Virus record (IMG/VR): IMGVR_UViG_3300008110_000029
Length of the DNA stretch: 64,000 bases
Source of the DNA: a virus
Lineage: Duplodnaviria > Heunggongvirae > Uroviricota > Caudoviricetes
Direction: 5' to 3' (one strand)
The notes below the pieces were generated by a model. The model was not told where the DNA came from, made no database searches, and saw nothing but the letters and a program-made list of their open reading frames with translations. Shown here piece by piece: positions 38,072 to 64,000 of the stretch. The position numbers and the translations under genes are program-made. Numbering within the stretch: the stretch's first letter is position 1; each line of letters starts with the position of its first letter.

Positions 38072-39001
38072 ATGCAACCAGTACAAATAGCTATGTCGGG
38101 AGTTACTCCCGGAACTTATGGAAACAACACCCAGATTCCTTCTTTCACAGTTGATGCTAGAGGTAGACTAGTATGGGCTGCAAATGTTGATATTCAATCA
38201 ACATTTAAATTTAAGGTTAATGATGACGATAGAATTGAAACCGTTAATTTAAGTAATGATTCATTCAATTTTAGAAGTGGACATGGAATCAATATAACAC
38301 CGGCACCAGACGGAATTAATATTGATTTTGATAGATCAATAATTCCCGATACTAGTGACTTTGTTAGAAAATCAGAAACATCTCATCAATTTTTAGGATC
38401 TATAAGATCTCCGTTAATTTATTCTCAAGAAGGAATATTTGATTCAGTTACTACAAAAGAAATATTAATAGATGGTGTATATACTAGATTTCAAACAAAA
38501 GGGTTCCATGTAGATTTTACAGACTTTGATGTTCTTGATTCTAAAGTTTTTCAAATCGATGGAATTTCAAAAAATACTAATACTGAAACAGCAAATTTTA
38601 ATGTTGATATTACATCTTCTTGGTTAAAATTCACCAGTCAAATTGAACTTCCTAATTCTGCTTTAAGTTTTCCAGATGGCCATGCTTTGGGAATTATTTC
38701 TTTTCAAGATGGCGGAATTGAAATGGGATATGGTGCAGGATTAATTGCTATCAAAAATTTTAATAATGATGGATCTTCACCGACAGGAATTTGCGTTATT
38801 ACTTCAAATGGGAAAGATGATATTTTTGAAAATCCAACAAAGTTTAACTTTGGTGGCGACGGAGTATTTGAAGCACCAATTTTAAAAACAAAAAGCTATA
38901 CAAGTTTGCCAGATAATCCCAAAGAAGGTTGGATAGTATTTGATGGCAACAACAAACAATTTAAAGGGTGGAACGGAACTAGTTGGATAACTTTAGGATA
39001 A
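38072..39001 (+). CDS. Tail-fibre-like structural protein
   Basis: The N-terminal 'MQPVQIAMSGVTPGTYGNNTQIPSFTVDARGRLVWAANV' resembles the phage tail-fibre 'G-x-Y-x-x-V-T-V-D-x-x-G-R-V' repeat. The rest is Gly/Asn/Asp-rich beta-type sequence. Confidence 0.45.
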   Translation: MQPVQIAMSGVTPGTYGNNTQIPSFTVDARGRLVWAANVDIQSTFKFKVNDDDRIETVNLSNDSFNFRSGHGINITPAPDGINIDFDRSIIPDTSDFVRKSETSHQFLGSIRSPLIYSQEGIFDSVTTKEILIDGVYTRFQTKGFHVDFTDFDVLDSKVFQIDGISKNTNTETANFNVDITSSWLKFTSQIELPNSALSFPDGHALGIISFQDGGIEMGYGAGLIAIKNFNNDGSSPTGICVITSNGKDDIFENPTKFNFGGDGVFEAPILKTKSYTSLPDNPKEGWIVFDGNNKQFKGWNGTSWITLG

Positions 39002-40535
39002 GAGGTTTAAAATAATCTCTTATTATTGTTTCTTTAAACATTTCTGTAAAATTAATAGACTTAATTAAATTTTGATATTCTTTATCTGTTAAATCTAAAT
39101 TTTTTTCTCTATTGCTTAGTCTACTATCATTAAAACTACTAATATAAAAATCTCCTCGATACGGCTTATTCTTCAATGTAGAATTTAATTCTTGCGAAAG
39201 TAATTCGGCCTGTTCGTAGCTGTTTATATCAGTATCATCATCTTTTCTCCAACTAAAGAAATTTATATCGGGATTAGGAAAATAATAACCATACTTTGAA
39301 TAATTGCGATCAATTTCACTCATATACATGTATTTCATAATATTGTGATTACCAATAATACTTAAAGGAAATGTGTTAGCTAAATCTATTGGGCAATCTT
39401 TTCTTTTAAAAAATTCAACAGCCTTATAAATTGTATCTGTACTTTCGTAAGGTAAACCTATAATAATCCCCGAAGCAATGTAACTTCGATCTCCCCAAAT
39501 TTCTTTACACTGATAGATAGTATCTATTAATCTTTCACTAGCCATCCCCTTACCAATAAACTTTGCAGTTTTTGGATTAAATGTTTCTAGACCAAAGTAA
39601 GTTTCTGCTATACCGGCATCTTTTAGTAATTGTATTTGCTCTGGGTGTGCCGCTAATAAATCTGCTCTTAGATAACACCAAAATTTTAATTCAAAAGGCA
39701 AACTCTGACTAACATCTGCAAACATCTGCATCTTTTCTGTACTATCATTAAACGTATCATCAACAATAAAATATTTTGTTGTTCCCCATTGTTCATAATT
39801 TTCTAAGAGTTCTCTACGTATAACATCAGCTTGTTTAAGATAGTTGACTGTTTTCTGTCCTATCAAAGGATACGAGCAATAGGCACATTTAAATTTACAA
39901 CCTCTGCTGACTTCTAAATTTAAAGTTTCTTGAGGTTGTATTAAATCCCAGGACGTATATGAAGTAGTACTTAATTTAAAATCCCATGTTGGATTGTGCG
40001 CCTTACGATCATGATCTATAATTCTATTAAATATCCTTTTTGTTTTTCCCGACAGAGAATCTAACAAATCAATAGTTTCAGTTTCTCCTAATCCGACTAT
40101 AACATAATCTGTAGGAGCATTAAGATAAAAATCAATCCTTGCACCACCCAACATTGTTTTTGTTTTTAAATTACATTGTTTGACATAATCGATCCAGGGT
40201 TTATAATTATCTCGAGCAAACTCAGTAACTAAACTTGGAATCTCAAATCGTTCTTTATCTGTTCCTGTTCCTTCTCCCGGATTACTGGTTCTAACACCAA
40301 TATCAGGAAACTTAAAAGGCATCCATGTTGTACTATAGCCAACTAGTAATGTGTTTGGTCCAATTGCTTTATCTAATATTTCAGTGTATATTTCCCAAGT
40401 AACAAGAGAGCTAAAATTAATTACTAAACAGCTATAACCATAATTGCGTATATGACTGGCTAATCTGTGTACACCATAACCTCTAGATTTAATATTAAAT
40501 TCTACAGTGTCAGTAAAAAGAATAACATCAAACAT
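38979..40535 (-). CDS. B12-binding radical-SAM enzyme (class B radical-SAM methyltransferase-like), copy 1
   Basis: 518 aa. N-terminal Rossmann-like B12-binding region. 'NLEVSRGCKFKCAYCSYP' is a Cys-x3-Cys-x2-Cys radical-SAM cluster motif. Confidence 0.75.
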   Translation of the reverse strand: MFDVILFTDTVEFNIKSRGYGVHRLASHIRNYGYSCLVINFSSLVTWEIYTEILDKAIGPNTLLVGYSTTWMPFKFPDIGVRTSNPGEGTGTDKERFEIPSLVTEFARDNYKPWIDYVKQCNLKTKTMLGGARIDFYLNAPTDYVIVGLGETETIDLLDSLSGKTKRIFNRIIDHDRKAHNPTWDFKLSTTSYTSWDLIQPQETLNLEVSRGCKFKCAYCSYPLIGQKTVNYLKQADVIRRELLENYEQWGTTKYFIVDDTFNDSTEKMQMFADVSQSLPFELKFWCYLRADLLAAHPEQIQLLKDAGIAETYFGLETFNPKTAKFIGKGMASERLIDTIYQCKEIWGDRSYIASGIIIGLPYESTDTIYKAVEFFKRKDCPIDLANTFPLSIIGNHNIMKYMYMSEIDRNYSKYGYYFPNPDINFFSWRKDDDTDINSYEQAELLSQELNSTLKNKPYRGDFYISSFNDSRLSNREKNLDLTDKEYQNLIKSINFTEMFKETIIRDYFKPLILKLSN

Positions 40536-42138
40536 TTTTATTTTTAAGATAGTTTAACAACGGTTGAAAATATTCTTTATTGGTATGATCATAAAACAGT
40601 TGATTAAAGTCTATAGAATTTATTAAATTATTATATTCTATCTTTGGCATATCGATAGTAAACTCTCTATTTCCAAGTATTGGATGATTGAAAGAACTAA
40701 CATAAAAATCTCCCTGACGTATTCTTTGATATGATGCTAATTCTTTAGTGGTAATGTCGGCTATTTCTTGTGCTTGATAAAAATTTTTAATATCGGTATC
40801 ATCTTTCTCCCAATATAACATTCCGTCTACTCCGTCCTTAGGAAATTGATATCCAAACTTTTCGTAGTTTTCGTCAAACCAACTAGTAGGGAACCATTTA
40901 TTTCTATCGGTTTTTTTAATTATATTGAGAGGATATACTGTCGAAATATCTAGCGGACAATCTCTACGCTTTAACCAATCAACGGTTTCTCTCCAACTAG
41001 CCTGGGTTTCGTGAGGAAGGCCAATCATAAAACCCCCTTCTAACCATACTCGATCACCCCACACTTCTTTTGCTCTATATAAAGTATCCTTACGGCGACT
41101 TGATGGCATTCCCTTACCAATAGTTTTTGAGCTCTTGTCATTAAAAGTTTCAAGACCAAAAAATGTTTCTGCTATGCCTATTTCTTTTAACAGTTCCATC
41201 TGTTCGGGATGTGCGGCTAATAGATCAACTCGGGTATAACACCAAAATTTAATTTTAAAAGGCAAGTCGCTCATTACCTTGGCCAACATTTCTAATTTTT
41301 CAGTGCTGTCATTAAATGTATCATCCACAATAAAATACTTAGTAGTACCCCAAAGTTCGTAATTTTTTAACAACTCGTCACGAATAATAGTTGGATATTT
41401 TAAATAATCATTGACATTTTTTTGACCAATAAGAGGAAAGTTGCAGAACGAACATTTAAATCTACATCCGCGACCTACTTCTAAGTTAAGAGTTTCTTGA
41501 GGTTGTATAAAATCATATTCTGTGTATTGTGTGCTACTTTCTCTAAAATCCCATGTAGGAGCATGAGCTTTTCTATCGTGATCGATATATTTTCCAAATA
41601 TGCGTTTTGTTTTTCCCGATAGTCGATCTAATAAATCAATAGTTTCAGTTTCGGCAATTCCAAAAATAACATGATCTATATTTTTTAGATCCATATAAAA
41701 ATCTGCTTTTGCACCACCTAATACAATTTTTAATTTTGAATTAATTGTTTTAGGATATAACAACCATTCTTCAACTTCATTCTTTCCAAATTTAACCACT
41801 AAATTATCTTTTCTCCAATCGTGCATCTCTGACTTTAAATGACTTAATTCATGTTGTTCCCCAATATGGTGTCCGGGAATCTGATTGGTAAATTCTCCTG
41901 GTTTTTCCGGCCATCTATAAGGTAACCAAGTTGTACTAAAACCAACCATAAGAGTTTCTGGTCCCACTGAATTATCAATAATTTCTTTATATCTATCAAA
42001 TGTTAGTGCCGAACTAAAATCAATGACAAGACAAGAGTAACCATTTGTTCTAATTTGACTAGCAATTCTATGCACACCATAACCTCTAATTTTATGATGA
42101 GGATAGGGAGCATCGGTAAATAGTATGACATTAAACAT
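40528..42138 (-). CDS. B12-binding radical-SAM enzyme, copy 2 (tandem paralog of 38979..40535)
   Basis: 536 aa. 'NLEVGRGCRFKCSFCNFP'. Long stretches are near-identical to copy 1 ('ETETIDLLD.LSGKTKRIF...IDHDRKAHAPTWDF', 'WGTTKYFIVDDTFNDSTEK'). Confidence 0.75.
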   Translation of the reverse strand: MFNVILFTDAPYPHHKIRGYGVHRIASQIRTNGYSCLVIDFSSALTFDRYKEIIDNSVGPETLMVGFSTTWLPYRWPEKPGEFTNQIPGHHIGEQHELSHLKSEMHDWRKDNLVVKFGKNEVEEWLLYPKTINSKLKIVLGGAKADFYMDLKNIDHVIFGIAETETIDLLDRLSGKTKRIFGKYIDHDRKAHAPTWDFRESSTQYTEYDFIQPQETLNLEVGRGCRFKCSFCNFPLIGQKNVNDYLKYPTIIRDELLKNYELWGTTKYFIVDDTFNDSTEKLEMLAKVMSDLPFKIKFWCYTRVDLLAAHPEQMELLKEIGIAETFFGLETFNDKSSKTIGKGMPSSRRKDTLYRAKEVWGDRVWLEGGFMIGLPHETQASWRETVDWLKRRDCPLDISTVYPLNIIKKTDRNKWFPTSWFDENYEKFGYQFPKDGVDGMLYWEKDDTDIKNFYQAQEIADITTKELASYQRIRQGDFYVSSFNHPILGNREFTIDMPKIEYNNLINSIDFNQLFYDHTNKEYFQPLLNYLKNKNV

Positions 42139-42161: not shown

Positions 42162-42848
42162 ATGGTAAAAAAATTTAATTCAGTTCTAGCATTTGGAGAT
42201 AGTCATGTTGCTGGATGTGAATTATCAAATCAATATACTTTTGAAGATTATACCAGAGGTAAAATAACAATAGAACAAGCAGATGATTCTGGAAAAAAAT
42301 TAGCCTTTCCTCAAGTGGTTGCTGATAAATTAAATATTCCTTGTTATAATTATGCAATGACTGGCGGAAGTAATGCTCGTAGTCTAAGATTATTAGTCAA
42401 CGCATTACAAGAACATCCAAATAGTTTAGTATTGTTTGGGTATACATGTACAGATAGAACAGAATTTTACTATCCAGACGTTGGCAATTTCTTAGGTAGA
42501 GATAAAGATAAATTCATACAAGTTGGTATGCAATGGAAAGGTAAGGTTGATGGAACCATGATTCATCCAATTAACGATCTGTTTGTTAATGAAATGCTTC
42601 GTCCTTATAATAATTTAAATGAATTAATGTTTATAGTAGATAATTTATGTACAGGATGGGCTACTGATTTTTTACATTTACCGTTGTTTCCAGAAATTAT
42701 ACCAAAGGTAGATAATGTTTTTAATTTTGAAAGTTGTGAGAATTATGTAAATTGGTGTGAATTCAAAATGTATAAAAAATTACCATTTTATCATTACGAT
42801 CAAGAAGCACATAATAATTTGGCTAGATTAATTCTTGAGGAGTTATAA
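42162..42848 (+). CDS. SGNH/GDSL-family hydrolase
   Basis: 'VLAFGDSHVAGCE' is the block-I GDS(H) motif. Confidence 0.5.
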   Translation: MVKKFNSVLAFGDSHVAGCELSNQYTFEDYTRGKITIEQADDSGKKLAFPQVVADKLNIPCYNYAMTGGSNARSLRLLVNALQEHPNSLVLFGYTCTDRTEFYYPDVGNFLGRDKDKFIQVGMQWKGKVDGTMIHPINDLFVNEMLRPYNNLNELMFIVDNLCTGWATDFLHLPLFPEIIPKVDNVFNFESCENYVNWCEFKMYKKLPFYHYDQEAHNNLARLILEEL

Positions 42849-43201
42849 TGTCTTGGGGTTATCATATTATGTTAGATTGTGCCGGTTGTGATTTAAAAAA
42901 AATTAAAGATAAAGATCACATATGGGCATTTGTATATACATTAATAAAACGTGTTGAAATGGAAGCGCACGGAAAAATGATCATTGAAAATTTATTACCA
43001 GGAACAGACAATGAAGGATATAGTGTATTACAAATGATTACTACAAGTAATATAAATTGTCATTTTGTAAACAAGACTGCTGATGCTTATATTGATTTGT
43101 TTAGCTGTAAAGAATTTAAAGCAGAAATAGTTATTGCTACTGTTAAAGAATTTTTTAATCCAACCAGCATCAAATTAAACTTTGTAGAAAGACAGGCTTA
43201 G
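42848..43201 (+). CDS. speD: S-adenosylmethionine decarboxylase-like protein (small pyruvoyl SpeD/SpeH class)
   Basis: 117 aa. 'GYHIMLDCAGCD' aligns with SpeH 'GRHLIAELYGCD'. 'GYSVLQMITTSNINCHF' aligns with '[20 protein letters not shown]'. 'AYIDLFSC' aligns with 'AAVDVFTCG'. Confidence 0.6.
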   Translation: MSWGYHIMLDCAGCDLKKIKDKDHIWAFVYTLIKRVEMEAHGKMIIENLLPGTDNEGYSVLQMITTSNINCHFVNKTADAYIDLFSCKEFKAEIVIATVKEFFNPTSIKLNFVERQA

Positions 43202-57348: not shown

Positions 57349-57764
57349 GTTTCTAAAATCTCTTTTAAATATTCTTCACTCCAGTGCGTATAATAACTAG
57401 ATTTAGATAATTTATCTCTCGCTTTATTCAGTTCGTCTCTCCACTGGCACAGAATTAAATTGTGTTCTCCATTATTAGTTTGTATACCATTAATGTAGGT
57501 TATTCTATTTTTAGGATCTGGTAAGAAAACCATCTCTGGATAAATGCTGTTATATTCTTTCGCAATTTTAAATATTTCTTCTTCGGAATAGTCATTCGGT
57601 AATTTATAAATGATGAGCTCAAAATTCCAAGGAGGTGGATCGATATCTGATCCATCAGTTTCAATAATTTCATACTTAGAACCTTTAGCATACGGACAAA
57701 TGCTAAATCCACCAAGTTCATCTCTAGGTTGGGTAATACGATCAATCCAATTGTCAATATCCAT
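57345..57764 (-). CDS. Hypothetical protein (139 aa)
   Basis: ORF, ATGA coupling. Confidence 0.35.
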   Translation of the reverse strand: MDIDNWIDRITQPRDELGGFSICPYAKGSKYEIIETDGSDIDPPPWNFELIIYKLPNDYSEEEIFKIAKEYNSIYPEMVFLPDPKNRITYINGIQTNNGEHNLILCQWRDELNKARDKLSKSSYYTHWSEEYLKEILET

Positions 57765-58900: not shown

Positions 58901-60134
58901 CCATGTGCCACGAAGGAAGTGAATCTTTATAAATCTCCGATGCCTTATTTACAGTAACAATAATGGCATTGGGATTATATTCTTTAATTTTTTTGAACAA
59001 TAGATTCTCATTATATATTCTGTGTCTTAATGGAACAAAAGGTGCTACGGGATCGTAATTAAAAATATGACTAAGATGCACAATAGTAGAAGGCACTGCA
59101 TCTAGCCAATCGCTTACTTCGAGATTTTTGTTAAGAACTAAATCTTGATGAGAAAATTCGAATTTAACGACTTTACTAATGTCACTCCAAATTACAGGAT
59201 CAATCCGTTGTTCAACACCAGTTAACGTTATCCACTCTTGTTTTTTATTTTTTAAAAAACTTGATCTTTTATTAACATACGTTTTTACAAATTCTAAATA
59301 ATTCAACCCGTCCCAATTCTTTATAATATATTCCATACACTCTAAAGCAAACAAATTATAATCTACAAAACGAACAACGGTATTTTTATCATATCCATAT
59401 TCTAAAAGATATTCTATAAACTGCAATCCACTTGCTTGAATTACTAATTGTTGTATTGGTGTACTACAATTAATTTTTATAACTTCTTCTGTATTGTAAG
59501 GATAGAATAATGTTTGTGAGGCAACCTCGTTTTTGCCGTATAGATAATCGCACGATTTTATAAACGCAGGTTCATAATTAGGATAATAGTATCTTTTGTT
59601 TTTTCTGAAACGATCTGCAAATGGTTTCACAAATTTATTATTAGCAAACGCAACACTAAGAATGTTCCAGCCGTGCCATTTGTGTTTATATTGACGTTCG
59701 GTATCGCCACCGGTTACCCAGATAGGAGTATAATCGTCGTGAATATTTTCTTCACTGCGTCTGGGTGCTATCTGTGTATGAGCTGAATAATATTCAAATT
59801 TTCCTATAACAGGACAACCTAATTCTTTGTAAGTTTTTAGATTGATTATGTAGCATTGTTCGTGTAATTCATAATAACCATCATCCCTATCTGGTATATG
59901 ACCCCAGATAAAAAATTCTTTGCCGCTGTAGACTTCCTTTTCGACTTCATGGAAAAATTCATCACCGTTGATGAACTCTGTGCCTGTACTTAATACAACT
60001 GCATGTGTATATTCTTTGGCGGCTTCTTGTAACATAGCATCTTCATCTAATCCTTGAATAATATTAAATCCGTGACCAAGAATCTTACTATAGACTATAT
60101 CTGAAGATCCTTCGGGTGTATTAAATTTTACCAT
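58878..60134 (-). CDS. Hypothetical protein (418 aa)
   Basis: ORF in operon context. No motif. Confidence 0.4.
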   Translation of the reverse strand: MVKFNTPEGSSDIVYSKILGHGFNIIQGLDEDAMLQEAAKEYTHAVVLSTGTEFINGDEFFHEVEKEVYSGKEFFIWGHIPDRDDGYYELHEQCYIINLKTYKELGCPVIGKFEYYSAHTQIAPRRSEENIHDDYTPIWVTGGDTERQYKHKWHGWNILSVAFANNKFVKPFADRFRKNKRYYYPNYEPAFIKSCDYLYGKNEVASQTLFYPYNTEEVIKINCSTPIQQLVIQASGLQFIEYLLEYGYDKNTVVRFVDYNLFALECMEYIIKNWDGLNYLEFVKTYVNKRSSFLKNKKQEWITLTGVEQRIDPVIWSDISKVVKFEFSHQDLVLNKNLEVSDWLDAVPSTIVHLSHIFNYDPVAPFVPLRHRIYNENLLFKKIKEYNPNAIIVTVNKASEIYKDSLPSWHMDGEWNDL

Positions 60135-60768
60135 ATTGATTATTATAACATCTTACTAACATTTCACAAAACTCGGCAGTTCTATGTCCCAATATAATGT
60201 TAGCAATCATATGCACTCTTGGTTTACTGCTACGATTAAAAACGGCATGTTTTTTGCTTATATTGATCATAATTATCTTTCCTTCTTTCCAAGGAACTTT
60301 CTTATCTTCTATAAACATCTCGCAATTATTTGGATGAGCTATAGCAATATTAATTGGTAGAATAGATAATAATGGATCCATATCCAGTGGAATCTCGCCG
60401 TCGGTGTGCCAGTTTATATTACTCCACGGTGCCAATTTCATAAAACGTATTCTTGTATATCTTTCTGCAGGAAATTGATTCTTCCAAAAATCTGTAATTA
60501 CAGGACACTTGTATGCTAGATCAGTATATTGATAAGGAGCATGATATTCATTATAACCATACCTGTCGGCAGTGTATGTTTTATCAATACCCAATCCGTG
60601 TAAACAACAACCGCTCCATCCTTCGCTATATCCTTCTCTATATTCTTGATAATGAGGCTCTGCTTCTAATGCCTGTTGTTTCCAGATATCTGCATTAAAA
60701 GAAATATCTAATTCTAACCAAGGTATATCTGATCTTAATATTTTACGTGCTTGTTCTATGCTATCCAT
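60121..60768 (-). CDS. Cupin-like 'HxD...H' family paralog
   Basis: 'NINWHTDGEIPLD' and 'ISKKHAVFNRS'. Confidence 0.4.
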   Translation of the reverse strand: MDSIEQARKILRSDIPWLELDISFNADIWKQQALEAEPHYQEYREGYSEGWSGCCLHGLGIDKTYTADRYGYNEYHAPYQYTDLAYKCPVITDFWKNQFPAERYTRIRFMKLAPWSNINWHTDGEIPLDMDPLLSILPINIAIAHPNNCEMFIEDKKVPWKEGKIIMINISKKHAVFNRSSKPRVHMIANIILGHRTAEFCEMLVRCYNNQYGKI

Positions 60769-61334
60769 GATTTAAAAATTTCTAAAGATTCTGCTATTGT
60801 TAGTCCCGCTTCTGGATTCTCTTTCCTACTAATGTCACAACTAATTAACCAACGCGGTTCCCAAACATTATTGTGAATGTTATGTGGAATGCCAGTTTGC
60901 ACGATTGTAGGCCATTTAACCACGTGAGAATATAAATGATTAACTTGGTTAGGGTGGTATTGTATGTAAGGTGTACCTGCTTGGGTATCCGTAGTTTCAA
61001 ATGGTTGCTCGCCCTCTTTAAGTTTGTACCAATGCATCATACTACCAGCACCCTGTACACACCAATTCATAACAGCACGGTCTGCGTCAGGAGAATGTCC
61101 GTCAATGTGTATACCGCATTGCTTGCCTTTAGGTGTGTAAAAAATAAGAGGAGGATAAGTTATTACTAATCCTAAACTATCAAGCCAGGATCGAAACTCA
61201 TCAGATACGTCACTATGATTAGCAAACCATATTTCTGTTTGGTCGCCTGTTTGATTTAATATAGCAGGGTTTACTAACGGATGAGATATCGGTATAGATA
61301 AATCGATAGCATAATTAGTGTTCACTTTTGCCAT
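60756..61334 (-). CDS. Cupin-like 'HxD...H' family paralog
   Basis: 'CGIHIDGHSPDAD' and 'MMHWYKL'. Confidence 0.4.
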   Translation of the reverse strand: MAKVNTNYAIDLSIPISHPLVNPAILNQTGDQTEIWFANHSDVSDEFRSWLDSLGLVITYPPLIFYTPKGKQCGIHIDGHSPDADRAVMNWCVQGAGSMMHWYKLKEGEQPFETTDTQAGTPYIQYHPNQVNHLYSHVVKWPTIVQTGIPHNIHNNVWEPRWLISCDISRKENPEAGLTIAESLEIFKSWIA

Positions 61335-61885
61335 CCAAAGAAATTAAACATATATTTTGTTTCAAGTCCCATATTCAGTCCGCCATGCCAATTTTGCCAA
61401 TCATCCCAACGATAAACATCTCCTTGTTTAGGATCGTATATAGCATGATTTTCAATTATTGATACCTGACCAAAGCTAGGCTCGCATATATAGCAAGTAT
61501 AATGAACAATTGGTCCTTTTGATAACCATTCTTTTTCCTGGTTGGGCATCTTATAATCGGGATGCCAAGGAACTATATACCCTGGAGGAACGGCACTAAC
61601 CCAACAGCCTGCAGGTTCACAATTTATCCATTTAGAAAAATTTTCAACCCATACATTAGAAAAATGCTCATAAGGCAAATAATCAATCCATTTTGCTGCG
61701 GCATTATTTTTATCATAACCTGCATTTTCCCAAATCTTAATTAGTTTTTCTACTTTGGGATTTCCTAAATGTATATCATCTTCCTGATCGTTTCCTCTTA
61801 ATCTAGGAGGTATTAATTTAAGATGATTTATTAAATCTTCCCATTTCATTGTTTTATTTGAATTTCCAATGTATGTGGCCATCAC
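61322..61885 (-). CDS. Aspartyl/asparaginyl-beta-hydroxylase-like cupin paralog
   Basis: 'IVPWHPDYKM' and 'WQNWHGGLNMGLETKYMFNFFGW'. Confidence 0.45.
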   Translation of the reverse strand: MMATYIGNSNKTMKWEDLINHLKLIPPRLRGNDQEDDIHLGNPKVEKLIKIWENAGYDKNNAAAKWIDYLPYEHFSNVWVENFSKWINCEPAGCWVSAVPPGYIVPWHPDYKMPNQEKEWLSKGPIVHYTCYICEPSFGQVSIIENHAIYDPKQGDVYRWDDWQNWHGGLNMGLETKYMFNFFGWQK

Positions 61886-62427
61886 TTTATTCCTAAAAAA
61901 TGAAACATAAATTGATCATGGAGCCCGCAGTTACCACCTGCATGATAATCTAAGTAATGGTCCCACTGATATGTATTACCAGAAAGTTCGCAATGAAAAC
62001 ATTGATTTTTACAAACAAAAACTCCTCCCGGATAAGGGTGACTGATAAAAGTACTGAACCGAATTACTTCTCCCTGAGATAGATATTCTTCAATGTTATC
62101 ATCGATGTCTTGATGTATTGGAGCATATTTTCCTGGACGTATTTTACTAATCCATGCTCTAGCACATTTCATTCCAACAAATTTTTCAAATTCTATAACA
62201 CACGAATTATCAAAATGTTTTATAGGATAATAATTAAACCACTCAACAGTGTCAACTTTATTATAGCCCGCATCAATCAACATTTGGATGTTATTGTCAA
62301 ATCGACCATCAAAGTTCTTATAAAAGTCTACACCAAACGCTCTCCGATCGCCTTCTTCAATACATAAAGAGTCAATTATACTATCCCATTTTCCTGCAAA
62401 AAAATTACCTATAAACTTAATTGACAT
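61882..62427 (-). CDS. Aspartyl/asparaginyl-beta-hydroxylase-like cupin paralog
   Basis: 'YAPIHQDIDDN' and 'HYLDYHAGGNCGLHDQFMFHFLG' are co-linear with 61322..61885. Confidence 0.45.
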   Translation of the reverse strand: MSIKFIGNFFAGKWDSIIDSLCIEEGDRRAFGVDFYKNFDGRFDNNIQMLIDAGYNKVDTVEWFNYYPIKHFDNSCVIEFEKFVGMKCARAWISKIRPGKYAPIHQDIDDNIEEYLSQGEVIRFSTFISHPYPGGVFVCKNQCFHCELSGNTYQWDHYLDYHAGGNCGLHDQFMFHFLGIK

Positions 62428-62461
62428 TTAATCCTCATATCTTATTACATATTCTTTAAAT

Positions 62462-62878
62462 TTATTCTTGATCGTAATGAGGAGTTAATAAAACATTATA
62501 TCTTTCCGGACTTTTAGGATATGTGAAGTCAATAGTTATATCATGATGAGCATCGACCGGACCTGTTTGAAGATATAGGCCTCCCCCGATAATTTGTTTA
62601 AATGGCAAAGATTCTAAAATTTCTATTAATTCTGGCATTAATTCTTTGATTCCGGGTCGATAGTAAGTTGGATCGTTATCGGTGAGATCTTGAAGTTTAT
62701 CTTCTGTAAAAATTTGAGAAGCATCTCTCCAATCGGTCACTGCCTTTCTAACAACTAATGGACATAATAAAGCATTAGGTATAATATTTTTATCCAAATA
62801 ATTCTTCTTAACATATTCTATGAGTAAATCTTGATCAGGAATTTTACATTTAATATCAATGGGAGTGTATATTATCAT
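62462..62878 (-). CDS. Hypothetical protein (138 aa; possible cupin paralog)
   Basis: 'GPVDAHHDITIDF'. Confidence 0.3.
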   Translation of the reverse strand: MIIYTPIDIKCKIPDQDLLIEYVKKNYLDKNIIPNALLCPLVVRKAVTDWRDASQIFTEDKLQDLTDNDPTYYRPGIKELMPELIEILESLPFKQIIGGGLYLQTGPVDAHHDITIDFTYPKSPERYNVLLTPHYDQE

Positions 62879-63612
62879 AATAATTCAAAGTTTTCTGGAA
62901 GCATTTTATTAAGTGTGTCTTTAGATTCTTTTTCGATATTAAATTTAACAAATGTTTTCCCATACTCAAACTTATTTATAAGCCCACTCTTATCAAAATG
63001 ATTTAATAACGGACTTAATTTCTCATCAAAAATAAACCTCGCATGTTCGTCAGTAATATCATTAAACTTAATGCATACCGGAACGCTGTTTTTAAGAATA
63101 TTGTTTTTTAATAACTGTCTAACAACTAATTGTATTCTTGTGACTCGTCCAACATTCATCGCTGTATGCCTAATCCCGGCATTCATGTTGTACCAAAATC
63201 CGTCTGTTGTTAACTTATACAACACGTTGTTTTCTAAATCTATCAAAAACGATTCATCAGAACATAAATTTAGATGATACCGATCATCTATATCAGCGTG
63301 TCCCTGGTAACATTTACCAGGTTCTAAAATTATTATCCTAGCTTCACCGATCGGTTCATTGATTGTTTTTAAAATAGATTCCCAAATAGTATTTTTAAAT
63401 TCCTCTTTAATTTTCCAAGGATCATAAAAGAAAGAATCTGTTGGTTGATTGATTGTATATCTAAAGTTATCACTGGGAATTTCTTTCAATGCAATTTCGA
63501 TTAAATCTAAAGAAACTTGATAGTTAGTTTTTGTTAACATGAAATATTTATATGCTACTATAACCCAGTTAAATAGTTCATGAACTATAATCATAATACA
63601 TTTTGTATGCAT
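62875..63612 (-). CDS. Cupin-like 'HxD...H' family paralog
   Basis: 'KCYQGHADIDDRYHL' and 'NAGIRHTAMNVG'. Confidence 0.4.
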   Translation of the reverse strand: MHTKCIMIIVHELFNWVIVAYKYFMLTKTNYQVSLDLIEIALKEIPSDNFRYTINQPTDSFFYDPWKIKEEFKNTIWESILKTINEPIGEARIIILEPGKCYQGHADIDDRYHLNLCSDESFLIDLENNVLYKLTTDGFWYNMNAGIRHTAMNVGRVTRIQLVVRQLLKNNILKNSVPVCIKFNDITDEHARFIFDEKLSPLLNHFDKSGLINKFEYGKTFVKFNIEKESKDTLNKMLPENFELL

Positions 63613-64000
63613 CCTTTTACAGGATTAGCAACACGTGAAGACGGCGCAATTAAAGTCATTCGTAAACAAGTTTTAAACGGAGAACGTCCTCCGGAGTGTG
63701 AACCTTGTTTTAGTTTAGAAGATCAAGGGGTTGAAAGTTTAAGACAGCGACACATTAAAGGAGAAATTCCAGAAGCACGTATTAATCTTTATCCTAATTC
63801 ATTAAAGAAAATGGATCAAGATTTTACAATGCCTTTCGAAATTCCAACAATAGAGATTAAATTGAATAATCTTTGCAATTTAAAATGTCGAATGTGCAAC
63901 CCTACAGATAGCACTAGTTGGAATGATTGGAAACAGGTTGAGGAATTTTACGACAAAGAAGGAAATTTTATTTCTAAAAATGTAAGAAAACTTAATCTTA
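63607..64000 (+). CDS. Radical-SAM enzyme, N-terminal part (continues beyond the window)
   Basis: 'MHPFTGLATREDGAIKVIRKQVLNGERPPECEPCFS...IKLNNLCNLKCRMCNPTDS' carries a Cys-x3-Cys-x2-Cys motif. It is divergent from the minus-strand block. Confidence 0.65.
   Translation, partial: MHPFTGLATREDGAIKVIRKQVLNGERPPECEPCFSLEDQGVESLRQRHIKGEIPEARINLYPNSLKKMDQDFTMPFEIPTIEIKLNNLCNLKCRMCNPTDSTSWNDWKQVEEFYDKEGNFISKNVRKLNL

What the first reader, a model, noticed from the sequence alone, without database searches (positions are those of the whole stretch)
38979..64000. Roughly 25 kb radical-SAM-dense tailoring island: candidate novel phage hypermodification pathway
About 35 tightly packed, mostly minus-strand genes, nearly all with overlapping stop/start codons, are interrupted by three short plus-strand islets. 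They encode four B12-binding radical-SAM enzymes, three radical-SAM enzymes with SPASM/twitch-like Cys clusters (one truncated by the window end), a class-I SAM methyltransferase, a class-III PLP aminotransferase, an amidinotransferase-family enzyme, an SDR, a SpeD-like decarboxylase, two SGNH hydrolases, two paralogous kinase-like proteins and about ten paralogous cupin-like proteins of the aspartyl/asparaginyl-beta-hydroxylase type. This enzyme repertoire (C-methylation by B12-rSAM, hydroxylation, epimerisation or cross-linking by rSAM, amination and amidination) resembles heavily tailored RiPP pathways (proteusin type), aminoglycoside-like pathways and nucleobase hypermodification pathways. 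It sits directly after a tail-fibre-like gene. No precursor peptide fits inside the operons. The substrate may therefore be a virion protein, a glycan, DNA, or a peptide encoded elsewhere such as the PqqA-like ORF.
Basis: partly seen in the sequence, partly recalled or inferred. Interest (0 to 1): 0.9.

Follow-up and report, generated by a model that had tools for sequence, protein, structure and literature searches.

The report
Radical-SAM-rich tailoring island in jumbo phage
A freshwater giant phage carries a real, tightly packed block of about 40 soluble chemistry enzymes (11 radical-SAM enzymes, about ten oxygenases, a sugar-transferase-like protein and amine-modifying enzymes) that is conserved across hundreds of related uncultured phages, but its target molecule is not encoded in the block and remains unknown.

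Summary
The island is real and larger than reported. It starts at window 38979 and runs about 6.5 kb past the window end, for about 31.5 kb in total. It holds 11 radical-SAM (rSAM) genes, all with an intact CX3CX2C motif. Profile and structure searches confirm four cobalamin-type rSAMs, an amidinotransferase, a class-III aminotransferase, a methyltransferase, an AdoMet_dc-family decarboxylase and three 2OG/cupin oxygenases. One more oxygenase is supported by predicted fold. The SGNH, SDR and kinase-like calls, and six of the roughly ten cupin calls, are weak or unsupported. The tail-fibre call on the flanking gene could not be verified.

The same island occurs in hundreds of metagenomic variants, on contigs up to 373-379 kb. 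Its core is syntenic and its cassettes are swappable; sister islands carry Trp-halogenase, carbamoyltransferase and TauD genes. Most core proteins belong to orphan families absent from isolated phages.

The island encodes no precursor peptide, peptide-recognition (RRE) domain, scaffold synthase, transporter or membrane protein. The PqqA ORF 29 kb away is an ordinary pqqA.

My best guess (about 0.3) is cytoplasmic hydroxylation, glycosylation and amino-sugar-type tailoring of a pre-existing acceptor, most likely a virion protein. A free small molecule (0.25) and DNA hypermodification (0.15) remain live alternatives. A RiPP pathway is not supported.

rSAM- and dioxygenase-rich variable islands in aquatic myophages have been described before, but their function has not been solved.

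The parts
38072..39001 (+). g1: flanking variable gene convergent with g2, forming the island boundary. The tail-fibre-like call is unverified.
   Evidence: No Pfam hit. Only two short matches to PHROGs of unknown function. No tblastn hit in phages and no PDB hit. Conserved in only 2 of 11 related loci.
38979..40535 (-). g2: class-B-type (cobalamin-domain) radical-SAM enzyme, paralog of g3 and g20.
   Evidence: Pfam Radical_SAM 1.2e-16. NCBIfam best hits are B12-rSAM families (ladderane-lipid, PhpK, HpnJ), all below their cut-offs. CKFKCAYC motif. Paralogy shown.
40528..42138 (-). g3: class-B-type radical-SAM enzyme, paralog of g2 and g20.
   Evidence: Pfam Radical_SAM 5.2e-16. NCBIfam PhpK family 6.8e-23, below cut-off. 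Aligns with g20 over residues 18-391, including the N-terminal domain. 74-88% identical orthologs in 11 IMG/VR loci.
42162..42848 (+). g4: SGNH/GDSL-like hydrolase (weak call).
   Evidence: Pfam Lipase_GDSL E 0.033, below threshold. N-terminal AFGDSH motif. Conserved in 10 of 11 related loci.
42848..43201 (+). g5: AdoMet_dc-family (SpeD-like, pyruvoyl-type) decarboxylase. The substrate is not established.
   Evidence: Pfam AdoMet_dc 1.2e-17, 64.7 bits against a threshold of 25. NCBIfam SAM_DCase_Bsu scores only 38.9 bits against a cut-off of 75.65.
43198..44277 (-). g6: radical-SAM enzyme with an N-terminal HMPTM-type zinc ribbon (MJ0619/Tes/TrsS-like architecture).
   Evidence: Pfam Radical_SAM 3.3e-19 plus Zn_ribbon_HMPTM 6.6e-15, both above threshold. 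NCBIfam TrsS 1e-28 and Tes 9e-24, below cut-offs. 63-87% identical orthologs.
44265..44810 (-). g7: conserved core protein of unknown function.
   Evidence: No Pfam, NCBIfam or PHROG hit. Present in all related loci, next to g8.
44798..45502 (-). g8: kinase-fold-like orphan protein, paralog of g10.
   Evidence: Iterative local HMM merges the g8 and g10 families. The family profile hits Bud32 at 6.6e-4 and Ser/Thr kinases at about 1e-2. Catalytic Asp positions are not conserved. Only 59 hits among 1.84 billion representatives.
45511..46314 (+). g9: 2OG/Fe(II)-oxygenase-like (DSBH fold) protein, the most conserved protein of the island.
46301..46876 (+). g10: kinase-fold-like orphan protein, paralog of g8.
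46867..47124 (-). g11: small acidic ORF (85 aa), the only small stand-alone gene in the island. It is not conserved in relatives.
   Evidence: Pfam gives only DUF7181 at E 0.005.
47105..48898 (-). g12: cobalamin-dependent radical-SAM C-methyltransferase-like enzyme (TokK/CysS/KedN5-like). It is a cassette specific to this phage.
   Evidence: Pfam B12-binding and Radical_SAM, both above threshold. PDB TokK 8.3e-72 and CysS 6.3e-47. NCBIfam KedN5 family 5.6e-52, below cut-off. Absent from the 11 related loci.
48891..50774 (-). g13: in this window a fusion ORF (627 aa) of an SGNH-like N-terminal part with a protein of unknown function. Sibling contigs carry two genes here (250 + 414 aa).
   Evidence: About 105-110 nt are missing relative to L001. 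No Pfam, PDB or PHROG hit.
50761..51822 (-). g14: radical-SAM enzyme with a C-terminal Cys cluster (SPASM/twitch-like), paralog of x4 beyond the window.
   Evidence: Pfam Radical_SAM 1.8e-12. NCBIfam W_rSAM_matur 3.4e-16, below cut-off. Paralogy at 6.7e-59.
51806..52444 (-). g15: class-I SAM-dependent methyltransferase.
   Evidence: Pfam Methyltransf_25, _31, _12, _11 and _23, all above threshold.
52429..53031 (-). g16: 2OG-Fe(II) oxygenase (2OG-FeII_Oxy_5 / TIGR02466-like).
   Evidence: Pfam 4.4e-16, above threshold. NCBIfam TIGR02466 scores 59.6 bits against a cut-off of 62.5.
53049..53681 (+). g17: conserved protein of unknown function. The cupin call is unsupported.
   Evidence: Only spurious weak Pfam hits. 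hhalign to the cupin families gives E of at least 0.018. Orthologs in 10 related loci.
53678..54862 (+). g18: class-III PLP-dependent aminotransferase.
   Evidence: Pfam Aminotran_3 2.4e-40. NCBIfam hits to BioA, ArgD and others, all below equivalog cut-offs.
54824..55864 (-). g19: amidinotransferase (pentein superfamily).
   Evidence: PDB HsvA 3.4e-21, StrB1 2.1e-19, SxtG and AGAT about 1e-13. C-terminal GIHCLT motif. 28% identical to the Campylobacter phage CP220 'glycine amidinotransferase'.
55861..57348 (-). g20: class-B-type radical-SAM enzyme, paralog of g2 and g3.
   Evidence: Pfam Radical_SAM 7.6e-12. B12-binding E 4.9e-4, below threshold. NCBIfam hits. Paralogy.
57345..57764 (-). g21: small conserved protein, homologous to a T4-like cyanophage protein (T4-like GC 824).
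   Evidence: PHROG 10325 at 9e-28, function unknown. 37-45% identical homologs found only in cyanomyophages, just upstream of baseplate genes gp25/gp6.
57754..58371 (-). g22: short SDR-like oxidoreductase (weak call).
   Evidence: Pfam Epimerase E 0.005, below threshold. TGxxxGIG and YxxxK motifs in the sequence.
58355..58900 (-). g23: Asp/Asn-beta-hydroxylase-family cupin.
   Evidence: Pfam Asp_Arg_Hydrox 1.3e-21.
58878..60134 (-). g24: two-domain protein with an N-terminal GT-A glycosyltransferase-like fold and a C-terminal methyltransferase-like Rossmann fold. It is 418 aa here and 442-445 aa in relatives.
60121..60768 (-). g25: Asp/Asn-beta-hydroxylase-family cupin.
   Evidence: Pfam Asp_Arg_Hydrox 4.8e-14.
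60756..61334 (-). g26: possible cupin (weak call).
   Evidence: No Pfam hit. hhalign to the g23 family gives E 1.3e-3.
61322..61885 (-). g27: possible cupin (weak call), paralog of g28.
   Evidence: phmmer g27-g28 4e-28. hhalign to the g23 and g30 families gives E about 5e-4.
61882..62427 (-). g28: paralog of g27.
62462..62878 (-). g29: unknown protein, truncated in this window (138 aa here, 175-214 aa in sibling contigs).
   Evidence: 93 nt are missing relative to L008. No support for a cupin fold.
62875..63612 (-). g30: possible Asp/Asn-hydroxylase-type cupin (weak call). The true start is probably at 63594, as in the 239-aa call on the sibling contig.
   Evidence: Pfam Asp_Arg_Hydrox E 0.0046, below threshold. 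hhalign. Gene call.
63580..64000 (+). N-terminal part of a twitch-domain radical-SAM enzyme (ortholog of x9), cut by the window end. The island continues about 6.5 kb further with four more rSAMs, a PIG-L deacetylase and an unknown protein.
   Evidence: Translation and CNLKCRMC motif. The full-length sibling scores 342 bits on NF033640 against a cut-off of 170. The continuation is seen in L008, L009 and L024.

Best explanation
The island is one lineage-conserved, cassette-variable set of soluble tailoring enzymes. It belongs to an uncultured freshwater jumbo phage (relatives up to about 375 kb). The host is probably a betaproteobacterium.

I propose that the enzymes work in the infected cytoplasm on an acceptor that is not made by the island, most likely a virion protein. 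The proposed order of steps is:
1. Asp/Asn-hydroxylase-type cupins and other 2OG oxygenases hydroxylate the acceptor.
2. The GT-A-like protein g24 transfers a host nucleotide-sugar, of HexNAc type.
3. The PIG-L enzyme just beyond the window removes the N-acetyl group.
4. The SDR, the class-III aminotransferase and the amidinotransferase introduce amino and guanidino groups.
5. The methyltransferase and the 11 radical-SAM enzymes, four of them cobalamin-type, add C- and O-methyl groups and perform other radical chemistry.
6. Swappable cassettes diversify the final structure between phage variants.

What is shown: the enzyme families, the paralog sets, the synteny, the cassette variation, and the absence of a precursor, scaffold enzyme or membrane protein.

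What is inferred: the order of steps, the sugar, and the identity of the acceptor.
For: **Enzyme families.** Confirmed by Pfam, NCBIfam and PDB searches.

**Hydroxylase-glycosyltransferase unit.**
- It sits between two Asp_Arg_Hydrox genes, g23 and g25.
- A single ORF in a Bdellovibrionales MAG contig fuses an Asp_Arg_Hydrox domain to a g24-like region. This argues that hydroxylase and transferase act together.

**Continuation of the island.** A PIG-L/LmbE deacetylase lies there.

**Cytoplasmic target.** All 41 proteins are soluble. There is no transporter, flippase or polymerase.

**No internal substrate.** No scaffold synthase or precursor is encoded.

**One functional unit.**
- Core synteny g2-g10 and g17-g22 is kept in 11 IMG/VR loci and in a 373-kb contig, with cassette exchange in between.
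- Hundreds of variants are conserved at 55-88% amino-acid identity.

**Links to virion modules.**
- The g21 homolog in T4-like cyanophages lies directly upstream of baseplate genes, beside 2OG oxygenase and glycosyltransferase genes.
- A pectate-lyase/tailspike-like gene lies on the same contig.

**Precedents.**
- Pelagimyophage host-recognition clusters with rSAM cassettes and glycosyltransferases (PMC7029224).
- A proposal that beta-hydroxylase-family dioxygenases hydroxylate co-encoded tail-collar or collagen-like proteins (PMC2938197).
Against: - No acceptor protein has been identified. The neighbouring g1 could not be shown to be a tail fibre.
- No nucleotide-sugar synthesis genes are present.
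- The closest characterised relatives of g12 (TokK, CysS), g19 (HsvA, StrB1, SxtG) and g18 act on small molecules.
- Sister islands carry Trp-halogenase, carbamoyltransferase, TauD and N-demethylase-like cassettes, which are typical of small-molecule pathways.
- Every equivalog-level NCBIfam score except NF033640 is far below its cut-off, so no reaction is established.
- The PIG-L gene, a second unknown protein and five rSAMs lie partly or wholly outside the window. They were read from sibling contigs.
Confidence: 0.3

Rival explanations
1. The island makes or tailors a free small molecule from a host metabolite. Candidates are an amino-sugar/aminocyclitol-like, polyamine-like or guanidino compound, C-methylated and hydroxylated, and in sister phages also halogenated or carbamoylated. 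The molecule would act inside the infected cell or be released at lysis, for example as an inhibitor of competitors or host defences, or as a DNA counter-ion.
For: - g12 is closest to TokK, CysS and KedN5, which are iterative C-methylases of secondary metabolism.
- g19 is closest to the polyamine amidinotransferase HsvA and to StrB1 and SxtG.
- g5 is an AdoMet_dc-family decarboxylase, placed next to the core genes in 9 of 11 relatives.
- A class-III aminotransferase and a PIG-L deacetylase are present. So are twitch rSAMs, the domain type whose prototype BtrN acts in butirosin biosynthesis (own knowledge).
- Sister islands carry one to three Trp_halogenase genes (E 1e-82 to 1e-97), a carbamoyltransferase, a TauD dioxygenase and an N-demethylase-like gene.
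- Iyer et al. proposed secondary-metabolite synthesis for cyanophage arrays of dioxygenases and halogenases (PMC2938197).
Against: - No scaffold-forming enzyme (NRPS, PKS, 2-deoxy-scyllo-inosose synthase, cyclase), no aminopropyltransferase, no exporter and no self-resistance gene was found.
- Ten or more paralogous small cupins and duplicated rSAM pairs are unusual for a single small molecule.
- All matches to characterised enzymes are at family level only.
Confidence: 0.25
2. The island hypermodifies the phage's own DNA. A base would be oxidised or hydroxymethylated, then glycosylated or aminated, then further tailored, to evade restriction or aid packaging of a genome of about 370 kb.
For: - A 2OG oxygenase plus GT-A pairing recalls the JBP/J-GT and TET-associated glycosyltransferase systems (own knowledge of Iyer et al. 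2013).
- Known thymidine hypermodification clusters combine kinases, PLP enzymes and rSAM enzymes (own knowledge of Lee et al. 2018).
- All island enzymes are cytoplasmic.
- Campylobacter phage CP220 carries a homologous amidinotransferase.
Against: - No hit to a TET/JBP-family dioxygenase, ThyA-like hydroxymethylase, P-loop 5-hmdU DNA kinase, aGPT-pyrophosphorylase, DpdA/TGT or QueC/D/E equivalog was returned for the island proteins scanned, and none for the flanking-gene subset scanned or with precomputed Pfam.
- The cupins are of the Asp/Asn-hydroxylase type.
- The kinase-like g8 and g10 lack catalytic Asp residues and have no PHROG relatives.
- About 40 genes is several times larger than any known DNA-modification cluster.
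Confidence: 0.15
3. The island matures a ribosomal peptide (a proteusin-like RiPP) whose precursor gene lies elsewhere in the genome.
For: - The enzyme classes match those of the polytheonamide pathway: B12 rSAM C-methylases, other rSAMs, a 2OG hydroxylase and a methyltransferase.
- Weak NCBIfam hits to RiPP rSAM families (rSAM_ocin_1, ApyD, sactipeptide maturases) were found.
- Halogenases in sister islands can act on peptides.
Against: - There is no precursor-sized free ORF in the island except g11, which is not conserved.
- No RRE/PqqD domain, leader protease or exporter was found.
- The rSAMs begin directly with the cluster motif, or with a twitch domain, rather than with an RRE.
- RiPP family scores are 20-50 bits against cut-offs of 280-750.
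- The PqqA ORF at 10119-10190 is a canonical pqqA among metabolic genes and is not linked to the island.
Confidence: 0.1
4. The island remodels a host envelope lipid or glycolipid (lipid A/LPS core, hopanoid side chain, aminolipid) to block superinfection or adsorption of competing phages.
For: - The enzyme classes parallel the hopanoid tailoring genes HpnI (glycosyltransferase), HpnK (PIG-L), HpnJ/P/R (B12 rSAM) and HpnO (class-III aminotransferase) (own knowledge).
- The best NCBIfam hits of g2, g3 and g20 include the ladderane-lipid rSAM, HpnJ and HpnR, and g6 hits tetraether synthase Tes.
- LpxO and OlsC belong to the Asp_Arg_Hydrox family (own knowledge).
- A fatty-acid desaturase lies next to the homologous cluster in L037.
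- The kinase-like fold resembles Bud32/RIO, a kinase type to which I recall the LPS core kinases being related (own knowledge, not tested).
- Co-infection avoidance through surface change has been proposed for pelagimyophage islands (PMC7029224).
Against: - No protein has a transmembrane segment or lipid anchor, and there is no flippase or transporter.
- All hpn and Tes scores are 5- to 10-fold below their cut-offs.
- No squalene-hopene cyclase or Lpx genes were seen.
Confidence: 0.1
5. The island is not one pathway. It is a hyperplastic accumulation zone of independent auxiliary genes that act separately on host metabolism.
For: - T4-like cyanophage and pelagiphage genomes have such hypervariable regions full of unrelated AMGs (PMC7029224 and PMC3037559, listed).
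- The rest of the window is a mosaic of AMGs: pqqA, PstS, a porin, DnaK, AhpC.
- Cassette content varies between relatives.
- Island GC (0.29-0.355) is lower than the GC of the region upstream.
Against: - Gene order of the core is conserved over hundreds of variants at 55-88% identity.
- Genes overlap end to end.
- There are seven paralog pairs or triplets.
- The cupin + g24 fusion in L037 links neighbouring genes functionally.
- The enzyme classes are complementary, not redundant.
Confidence: 0.1

Closest known systems
Hypervariable 'host recognition cluster' or hyperplastic islands of T4-like cyano- and pelagimyophages (PMC7029224; Syn9 array of 10 dioxygenases, PMC2938197; a T4-like environmental genome with 12 radical-SAM genes, PMC5332604)
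   Same: - Aquatic large myophage-type genomes.
- Tens of kilobases rich in 2OG/Fe(II) and Asp/Asn-hydroxylase-type oxygenases, radical-SAM cassettes and glycosyltransferases.
- Content varies between close relatives.
- Halogenases co-occur.
- Function is unknown.
- g21 has homologs only in cyanomyophages.
   Different: - There is no detectable sequence similarity for the rSAMs, g23, g9 or g24 in GenBank phages.
- The carrier is a jumbo-phage lineage of about 370 kb, whose T4-likeness was not tested.
- The core is strongly syntenic rather than freely shuffled.
- It has four cobalamin-type rSAMs plus an amidinotransferase, aminotransferase and PIG-L set.
Proteusin (polytheonamide-type) RiPP pathways
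   Same: Several B12-dependent rSAM C-methyltransferases, further rSAMs, a 2OG hydroxylase and a SAM methyltransferase in one cluster.
   Different: No precursor with an NHLP/Nif11 leader, no RRE, no protease or exporter. RiPP rSAM family scores are far below their cut-offs.
Aminoglycoside/aminocyclitol pathways (butirosin, gentamicin, streptomycin)
   Same: PIG-L-type deacetylase, class-III aminotransferase, amidinotransferase (StrB1-like), B12 rSAM methylases, twitch-domain rSAM, SDR and 2OG oxygenase.
   Different: No 2-deoxy-scyllo-inosose or inositol-phosphate synthase, no DegT-type aminotransferase, no GT-B glycosyltransferases, and no resistance or export genes. All matches are at superfamily level only.
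Virus-encoded cytoplasmic virion glycosylation (chlorovirus PBCV-1 A64R, Mimivirus fibril glycosylation and L230 hydroxylase-glycosyltransferase)
   Same: - Soluble viral GT-A enzymes act without host membrane machinery.
- A hydroxylase is coupled to a glycosyltransferase.
- Methyltransferase domains are present.
   Different: - Those viruses infect eukaryotes and also encode nucleotide-sugar synthesis.
- No rSAM arsenal is known there.
- Sequence identity is only 6-9%.
Phage thymidine/cytidine DNA hypermodification clusters
   Same: Phage-encoded post-replicative tailoring that uses kinases, PLP enzymes, radical-SAM enzymes and glycosyltransferases.
   Different: The hallmark enzymes (hydroxymethylase, 5-hmdU DNA kinase, aGPT-pyrophosphorylase, TET/JBP) were not found here. 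This island is several times larger.
Hopanoid side-chain tailoring genes (hpnI, hpnK, hpnJ, hpnO, hpnP/R)
   Same: The same combination of enzyme classes: glycosyltransferase, PIG-L deacetylase, B12 rSAMs and a class-III aminotransferase.
   Different: Scores to the Hpn equivalogs are 22-60 bits against cut-offs of 577-650. All proteins are soluble, and no shc or hpnH was seen.

Membership tests
Radical SAM superfamily (PF04055) | Pfam score above the gathering threshold, and a CX3CX2C cluster motif. | tested here: met
   g2, g3, g6, g12, g14 and g20 score 46-70 bits against a threshold of 29.5. The motif is present in all of these, in the truncated ORF at 63580-64000, and in x3, x4, x5 and x8 beyond the window.
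Class B (cobalamin-dependent) radical SAM enzymes | An N-terminal B12-binding (Rossmann-like) domain preceding the rSAM core. | tested here: inconclusive
   - g12: PF02310 scores 34.9 bits against a threshold of 32.1, so the feature is met.
- g20: 20.4 bits, sub-threshold.
- g2 and g3: no direct Pfam hit. g3 aligns with g20 from residue 18, and both g2 and g3 hit only class-B NCBIfam families.
- Cobalamin binding itself cannot be tested with these tools.
KedN5/TokK/CysS family of methylcobalamin-dependent C-methyltransferases (NF033712) | Score above the curated cut-off of 700 bits. | tested here: not met
   g12 scores 176.8 bits. It is nevertheless the closest solved relative of TokK (8e-72) and CysS (6e-47). 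It works like a member, but it is not a member.
NF033640 twitch-domain-containing radical SAM protein | Score above the curated cut-off of 170 bits. | tested here: met
   Full-length siblings x5 and x9 score 420.9 and 342.2 bits. The window holds only the first about 140 codons of the x9 ortholog, with a 78-nt deletion.
Amidinotransferase (pentein superfamily; AGAT, StrB1, HsvA) | Significant similarity to characterised members, and a C-terminal catalytic Cys motif. | tested here: met
   g19 matches HsvA at 3.4e-21 and StrB1 at 2.1e-19. The GIHCLT motif is near the C-terminus. Pfam gave no hit. Substrate specificity was not tested.
Asp/Asn beta-hydroxylase family (PF05118) | Pfam score above the gathering threshold of 22.6 bits. 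| tested here: inconclusive
   - Met for g23 (77.5 bits) and g25 (52.9 bits).
- g30 scores 17.2 bits, below threshold.
- g26, g27 and g28 are linked only by hhalign E of about 1e-3.
- g17 and g29 are not supported.
RiPP (proteusin-type) biosynthetic gene cluster | A precursor peptide gene in or next to the cluster. | tested here: not met
   No free small ORF except g11, which is not conserved. The only RiPP-type precursor in the window is a canonical PqqA, 29 kb away.
RiPP (proteusin-type) biosynthetic gene cluster | An RRE/PqqD-like recognition domain, and RiPP-type rSAM families above their cut-offs. | tested here: not met
   No PqqD/RRE Pfam hit was found. rSAM_ocin_1 scores 23-48 bits against a cut-off of 281.85, and ApyD scores 25-37 bits against 750.
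Aminoglycoside/aminocyclitol biosynthetic cluster | A cyclitol-forming enzyme (2-deoxy-scyllo-inosose synthase or inositol-phosphate synthase) and GT-B glycosyltransferases. | tested here: not met
   Among the island proteins scanned with Pfam (g1-g30 and x6) or carrying precomputed Pfam hits (x3-x9), none hit such a family. Only the accessory classes are present (aminotransferase, amidinotransferase, PIG-L, rSAMs).
Phage DNA hypermodification system (thymidine or 7-deazaguanine type) | Hallmark enzymes: ThyA-like hydroxymethylase, 5-hmdU DNA kinase, aGPT-pyrophosphorylase, or DpdA plus QueC/D/E. | tested here: not met
   - No such hit was returned for the island proteins scanned, or for the flanking-gene subset that was scanned or carried precomputed Pfam hits.
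- QueE-type scores are 23-37 bits against cut-offs of 206-260.
- The rest of the genome, about 300 kb, could not be read.
Hypervariable tailoring/AMG island of aquatic myophages (descriptive kind; PMC7029224, PMC2938197, PMC5332604) | A variable block rich in dioxygenases and rSAM cassettes, differing between close relatives, and lying among or next to tail-fibre/structural genes of a T4-like genome. | tested here: inconclusive
   - Oxygenase and rSAM richness and cassette variation are met.
- Adjacency to a verified tail-fibre gene is not shown.
- A tailspike-like gene lies about 35 kb upstream of the island on the sibling contig, just before the window start.
- A T4-like backbone was not tested.
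GT-A glycosyltransferases | A GT-A Rossmann-like fold with a DxD-type metal/nucleotide-sugar site. | tested here: inconclusive

The most novel reading that the evidence does not exclude
A widespread clade of freshwater jumbo phages encodes a self-contained machinery of about 40 genes and 11 radical-SAM enzymes. It would install a previously unknown, heavily C-methylated, aminated and amidinated glycosyl-type hypermodification on the phage's own macromolecules (virion proteins or DNA). Swappable cassettes (halogenase, carbamoyltransferase, TokK-like methylase) would diversify the modification between strains, as a new kind of viral chemical arms-race device.
Probability: 0.2. Interest if true: 0.9.

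Novelty: new variant of a known kind. Interest (0 to 1): 0.7.

Why it matters
- If the island is one pathway, it is among the densest collections of radical-SAM and oxygenase chemistry known in any virus. It is carried by an abundant, uncultured phage lineage: hundreds of sequence variants, in Lake Erie and other metagenomes.
- Working out its substrate would answer a question open since at least 2010: what do the dioxygenase-, halogenase- and rSAM-rich islands of aquatic phages do?
- It could also reveal new enzyme reactions. Several core families (g7, g8/g10, g9, g24) have no characterised relatives.
- It makes testable predictions: non-canonical residues or glycans on virions, modified nucleosides, or a new metabolite.
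- It implies that the host must supply cobalamin, Fe-S clusters and reductant during infection.

Tried and rejected
- **DNA search against GenBank phages.** Megablast of both halves of the window found nothing.
- **Protein search against GenBank phages.** tblastn of g2/g3, g23 and g1 found no match. g12 gave only two weak gut-phage hits.
- **Ralstonia jumbo phage RsoM2USA.**
  - It has a distant twitch-rSAM homolog next to 18 tandem paralogs of about 200 aa.
  - I suspected a cupin array, but hmmsearch and hhalign show no relation to any island family.
- **PDB sequence searches.** g1, g13, x6, and the g9 and g24 profiles gave nothing.
- **hhalign of x6 against the g24 profile.** No relation.
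- **hhalign links of g9, g17 and g29 to the confirmed cupins.** Not significant.
- **Sigma-70 promoter and terminator scan.** Counts equal those of shuffled sequence, so it is uninformative.
- **AFDB Foldseek library.** Not available.
- **Exact-protein look-ups.** The look-up of 23073-24953 failed. The look-up of g30 found only a 3.4-kb contig, probably because the start codon is called differently.
- **Genome-collection scan with the g2/g3/g20 profile.**
  - It returned mostly generic B12-rSAMs at 22-33% identity.
  - Only one contig (L028) is a misbinned member of the phage lineage.
  - Two contigs (L037, L039) share more than one island family.
- **PqqA as the island's substrate.** Considered and rejected. 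It is a canonical pqqA among metabolic genes, and no PqqD/PqqE equivalents are present.
- **Lipid hypothesis.** Considered and down-weighted, because every protein is soluble.

Full report
**1. What is in the sequence**

Window 38979-64000 contains 29 complete ORFs (g2-g30 in my numbering) plus one ORF cut by the window end.
- Almost all genes overlap their neighbour by 1-39 nt.
- Three short plus-strand islets interrupt the minus-strand run: 42162-43201, 45511-46876 and 53049-54862.
- GC falls from 0.35-0.40 upstream to 0.29-0.355 in the island.
- Every ORF of 20 aa or more other than the main genes lies inside a larger gene. The only small stand-alone gene is g11 (85 aa).

I count 30.

**2. 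Enzyme assignments**

Confirmed:

| Gene(s) | Assignment | Evidence |
|---|---|---|
| g2, g3, g6, g12, g14, g20 | Radical SAM (rSAM) | Pfam above gathering threshold |
| g12 | B12-binding domain | Pfam above threshold |
| g5 | AdoMet_dc | Pfam |
| g6 | Zn_ribbon_HMPTM | Pfam |
| g15 | Class-I methyltransferase | Pfam |
| g16 | 2OG-FeII_Oxy_5 | Pfam |
| g18 | Aminotran_3 | Pfam |
| g23, g25 | Asp_Arg_Hydrox | Pfam |
| g19 | Amidinotransferase | No Pfam hit; PDB HsvA 3.4e-21, StrB1 2.1e-19, SxtG and AGAT about 1e-13 |
| g12 | Cobalamin-dependent C-methylase type | PDB TokK 8.3e-72, CysS 6.3e-47 |

- g2, g3 and g20 are paralogs (6e-188 and about 1e-50).
  - g3 aligns with g20 from residue 18 onward, so the N-terminal B12-type domain is included.
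  - Their NCBIfam hits are all class-B families (ladderane-lipid rSAM, PhpK, HpnJ, HpnR), but 5- to 10-fold below the curated cut-offs.
- All rSAM proteins carry CX3CX2C.

Weak calls:
- g30: Asp_Arg_Hydrox E 0.005.
- g26, g27 and g28: hhalign E about 1e-3 to g23 or g30.
- g22: SDR motifs only.
- g4: GDSL E 0.03.
- g13 N-terminus: only a GDS motif.

g9:
- It has no sequence-family hit.

g8 and g10:
- They are true paralogs.
- Their joint profile weakly hits Bud32 (6.6e-4) and Ser/Thr kinases.
- The catalytic Asp positions are not conserved.
- The family has only 59 relatives among 1.84 billion representative proteins.

No support was found for cupin folds in g17 and g29, or for g1 being a tail fibre.

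**3. The island is larger than the window shows**

Exact-protein look-ups place the window on JGI contig Ga0114344_1000088 (137,979 bp, sample 3300008111) and on many sibling contigs. Beyond window position 64000 the island continues for about 6.5 kb.

| Gene | Size | Assignment |
|---|---|---|
| x9 | 420 aa | Rest of the truncated rSAM; NF033640 twitch rSAM, 342 bits against a cut-off of 170 |
| x8 | 305 aa | rSAM |
| x7 | 228 aa | PIG-L/LmbE deacetylase |
| x6 | 287 aa | Unknown |
| x5 | 432 aa | NF033640 twitch rSAM, 421 bits |
| x4 | 351 aa | rSAM, paralog of g14 |
| x3 | 328 aa | rSAM, paralog of x8 |

- Past x3 the organisation changes to small, spaced genes.
- The totals are about 31.5 kb, about 40 genes and 11 rSAMs.
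- None of the 41 proteins examined has a convincing transmembrane segment.

**4. Who carries it**

- No GenBank phage matches at DNA level.
- g2/g3 and g23 have no tblastn match in GenBank phages, and g12 gives only two weak gut-phage hits.
- g7-g10, g13, g17, g24, g26 and g27 have no significant PHROG relative. g10 gave one marginal hit to a terminase PHROG at E 0.0046, which I discount.
- In metagenomes the lineage is large.
  - g9 has 954 homologs, of which the best 120 are 79-88% identical.
  - g24 has 306 homologs.
  - All are unannotated, on contigs up to 372,995 and 378,878 bp.
- IMG/VR holds 11 related loci, one on a 269,730-bp contig.
- Gene-by-gene comparison shows a syntenic core, g2-g10 and g17-g22, at 50-90% identity, with a variable middle.
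  - g12 (TokK-like) is unique to this phage.
  - Most relatives instead carry one to three Trp_halogenase genes (E 1e-82 to 1e-97).
  - Some relatives carry a TauD dioxygenase, a haem-dependent N-demethylase-like gene or a carbamoyltransferase.
- A more compact version of the island keeps g7-g10, g22, g27 and x3 together.
- g21 is the only island protein with homologs in isolated phages.
  - It is 37-45% identical to a protein found only in T4-like cyanophages.
  - That gene lies directly upstream of baseplate genes gp25/gp6, next to 2OG-oxygenase and glycosyltransferase genes.

**5. g24 and the hydroxylase-transferase unit**

- The full-length sibling of g24 (P0121, 444 aa) folds with pLDDT 82.
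- Foldseek against viral models finds full-length uncharacterised proteins of uncultured Caudovirales (E 1e-28), followed by viral glycosyltransferases.
- g24 lies between the two firm Asp_Arg_Hydrox genes, g23 and g25.
- In a Bdellovibrionales MAG contig (L037) a single 682-aa ORF combines an Asp_Arg_Hydrox region with a g24-like region.
  - That ORF lies beside a B12-rSAM homolog, further 2OG oxygenases and a fatty-acid desaturase.
  - The fusion argues that the hydroxylase and the transferase act on the same substrate.

**6. What the island lacks**

- No precursor peptide, no RRE/PqqD domain and no protease.
- No NRPS or PKS, no cyclitol synthase and no nucleotide-sugar synthesis genes.
- No transporter, flippase or polymerase.
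- No ThyA-like, TET/JBP, 5-hmdU-kinase, aGPT-pyrophosphorylase or DpdA hit among the proteins scanned.
  - It lies among phosphate-uptake and stress genes, 29 kb from the island, with no PqqD/E partner.
  - I regard it as an ordinary auxiliary gene.

**7. Interpretation**

Three observations together point to tailoring of a substrate supplied from outside the island, inside the cytoplasm:
- all the enzymes are soluble;
- the island makes no scaffold of its own;
- the core is strongly conserved while the cassettes are exchangeable.

My preferred scheme (confidence about 0.3) has these steps:
1. hydroxylation;
2. glycosyl transfer by g24;
3. de-N-acetylation by the PIG-L enzyme;
4. oxidation, transamination and amidination by g22, g18 and g19;
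5. methylation and radical chemistry by g15 and the rSAMs.

The most likely acceptor is a virion protein, by analogy with the cytoplasmic virion glycosylation of chloroviruses and mimiviruses. The proposal of Iyer et al. that beta-hydroxylase-type dioxygenases modify co-encoded tail-collar or collagen-like proteins points the same way (PMC2938197).

The strongest rival (0.25) is a free small molecule.
- The nearest characterised relatives of g12, g19 and g18 act on small molecules.
- The halogenase, carbamoyltransferase and TauD cassettes of sister islands are classic secondary-metabolite tailoring enzymes.

The other alternatives are:
- DNA hypermodification (0.15), which is mechanistically attractive but lacks every hallmark enzyme;
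- a RiPP (0.1), which is not supported;
- envelope-lipid remodelling (0.1), which fits the enzyme classes (an hpn-like set) but not the absence of any membrane association;
- a pile of unrelated auxiliary genes (0.1), which is contradicted by the synteny, the paralog structure and the gene fusion.

**8. Relation to what is known**

- Zaragoza-Solas et al. describe hypervariable host-recognition clusters in pelagimyophages. [quoted passage not shown]
- Iyer et al. describe ten tandem dioxygenases in phage Syn9, and phage arrays of dioxygenases and halogenases (PMC2938197).
- Nishimura et al. report a T4-like environmental genome with 12 radical-SAM genes plus Fe-S assembly genes, ClpP and glutaredoxin (PMC5332604).

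The kind of island is therefore known descriptively, but its function is not. This one differs in three ways:
- its carrier, a lineage of about 370 kb;
- its conserved core of orphan families;
- its set of cobalamin-type rSAMs, amidinotransferase, aminotransferase and PIG-L deacetylase.

I rate it a new variant of a known, unsolved kind.

**9. Caveats**

- Five rSAMs, the PIG-L deacetylase and x6 lie partly or wholly outside the window. They were read from sibling contigs that are 99.8-100% identical to the window.
- The window itself differs from those contigs by six short deletions. Some truncate or fuse genes (g13, g24, g29, the x9 ortholog, and pstS upstream).
- The g9 model is of low confidence.
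- Except for NF033640, no NCBIfam equivalog or subfamily cut-off is reached, so no specific reaction is established.

Noticed in passing
window 4272-4732 (+): A permuted (two-piece) tmRNA gene with tag peptide ANDNAFDFTAMSFTGNTVANDSKFALAA. The best Rfam family is beta_tmRNA (135.9 bits against a gathering score of 84), and tmRNA_permuted also matches (152.6 bits). This suggests a betaproteobacterial host.
   Followed up: partly
window 10119-10190 (+) (ORF 10086-10190): A bona fide pqqA ([23 protein letters not shown]; Pfam PqqA 33.5 bits against a cut-off of 21.1). A phage-borne PQQ precursor gene, together with the beta-type tmRNA and GC of about 36%, hints at a methylotrophic host such as Methylophilaceae. 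That is inference only.
   Followed up: partly
window 7440-8282 and 8360-9772 (+): Phosphate-acquisition auxiliary genes: a PstS-like binding protein (PHROG 5385; PBP_like_2 on the sibling contig) and a phosphate-selective porin O/P (Pfam 1e-51). The pstS copy in the window is shortened by a 158-nt deletion relative to the sibling contig.
   Followed up: partly
window 17713-19662 (+); 36625-37182 (+); 37185-37403 (+): A full-length DnaK/Hsp70 (about 69% identical to bacterial DnaK), a ClpP-like protease and a translation initiation factor IF-1 are encoded just upstream of the island.
   Followed up: partly
window 1885-2124, 6295-6828 and 6828-7343 (+): Glutaredoxin, an AhpC/TSA peroxiredoxin and a CMD/AhpD-like protein, from precomputed Pfam on the sibling contig. 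These redox-protection genes could support the many oxygen-sensitive Fe-S enzymes of the island.
   Followed up: no
window 5292; 8216/8217; about 50098-50102; g24 (58878-60134); 62466; 63656/63657: The window is 99.8-100% identical to several independently assembled contigs but lacks six short segments of 51-158 nt. Some of these truncate or fuse genes: pstS, the g13 fusion, g24 at 418 instead of 444 aa, g29 at 138 instead of 175-214 aa, and the N-terminus of the twitch rSAM. They may be population variants or assembly artefacts.
   Followed up: partly
L013-L023 and L027 (for example L013 1966-3561; L014 1454-4349; L022 15644-17137; L017 8224-8949): Sister islands carry one to three flavin-dependent Trp_halogenase genes, a carbamoyltransferase, a TauD dioxygenase and a haem-dependent N-demethylase-like gene, at the position where this phage has g11-g16.
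   Followed up: partly
L037 9360-11408 (Bdellovibrionales MAG contig JANOYW010000077.1): A 682-aa ORF fuses an Asp_Arg_Hydrox-like domain to a g24-like region. It sits in a cluster with a B12-rSAM homolog (30% identity), three further oxygenases and a fatty-acid desaturase. It is unclear whether the contig is bacterial or viral.
   Followed up: partly
L109 (Ralstonia phage RsoM2USA MG752970.1, record 197502-210056): An array of 18 tandem paralogs of about 200 aa lies about 7 kb from a distant twitch-rSAM homolog in this 344-kb jumbo phage. They are unrelated to the island's cupins and have no annotation.
   Followed up: partly
L108 5680-7215 (contig Ga0114344_1000088, about 2.2-3.7 kb upstream of the window start): A 511-aa protein with a pectate-lyase/tailspike-type domain (Pect-lyase_RHGA_epim; faint Mtd_N) next to the ribonucleotide reductase genes. 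It is the only clearly tail-like gene seen near the window.
   Followed up: no
window 38979-64000 versus 1-38000: The island has lower GC (0.29-0.355) than the upstream region (0.35-0.40). Divergent gene pairs inside it are separated by only 8-23 nt, which leaves almost no room for conventional promoters.
   Followed up: partly
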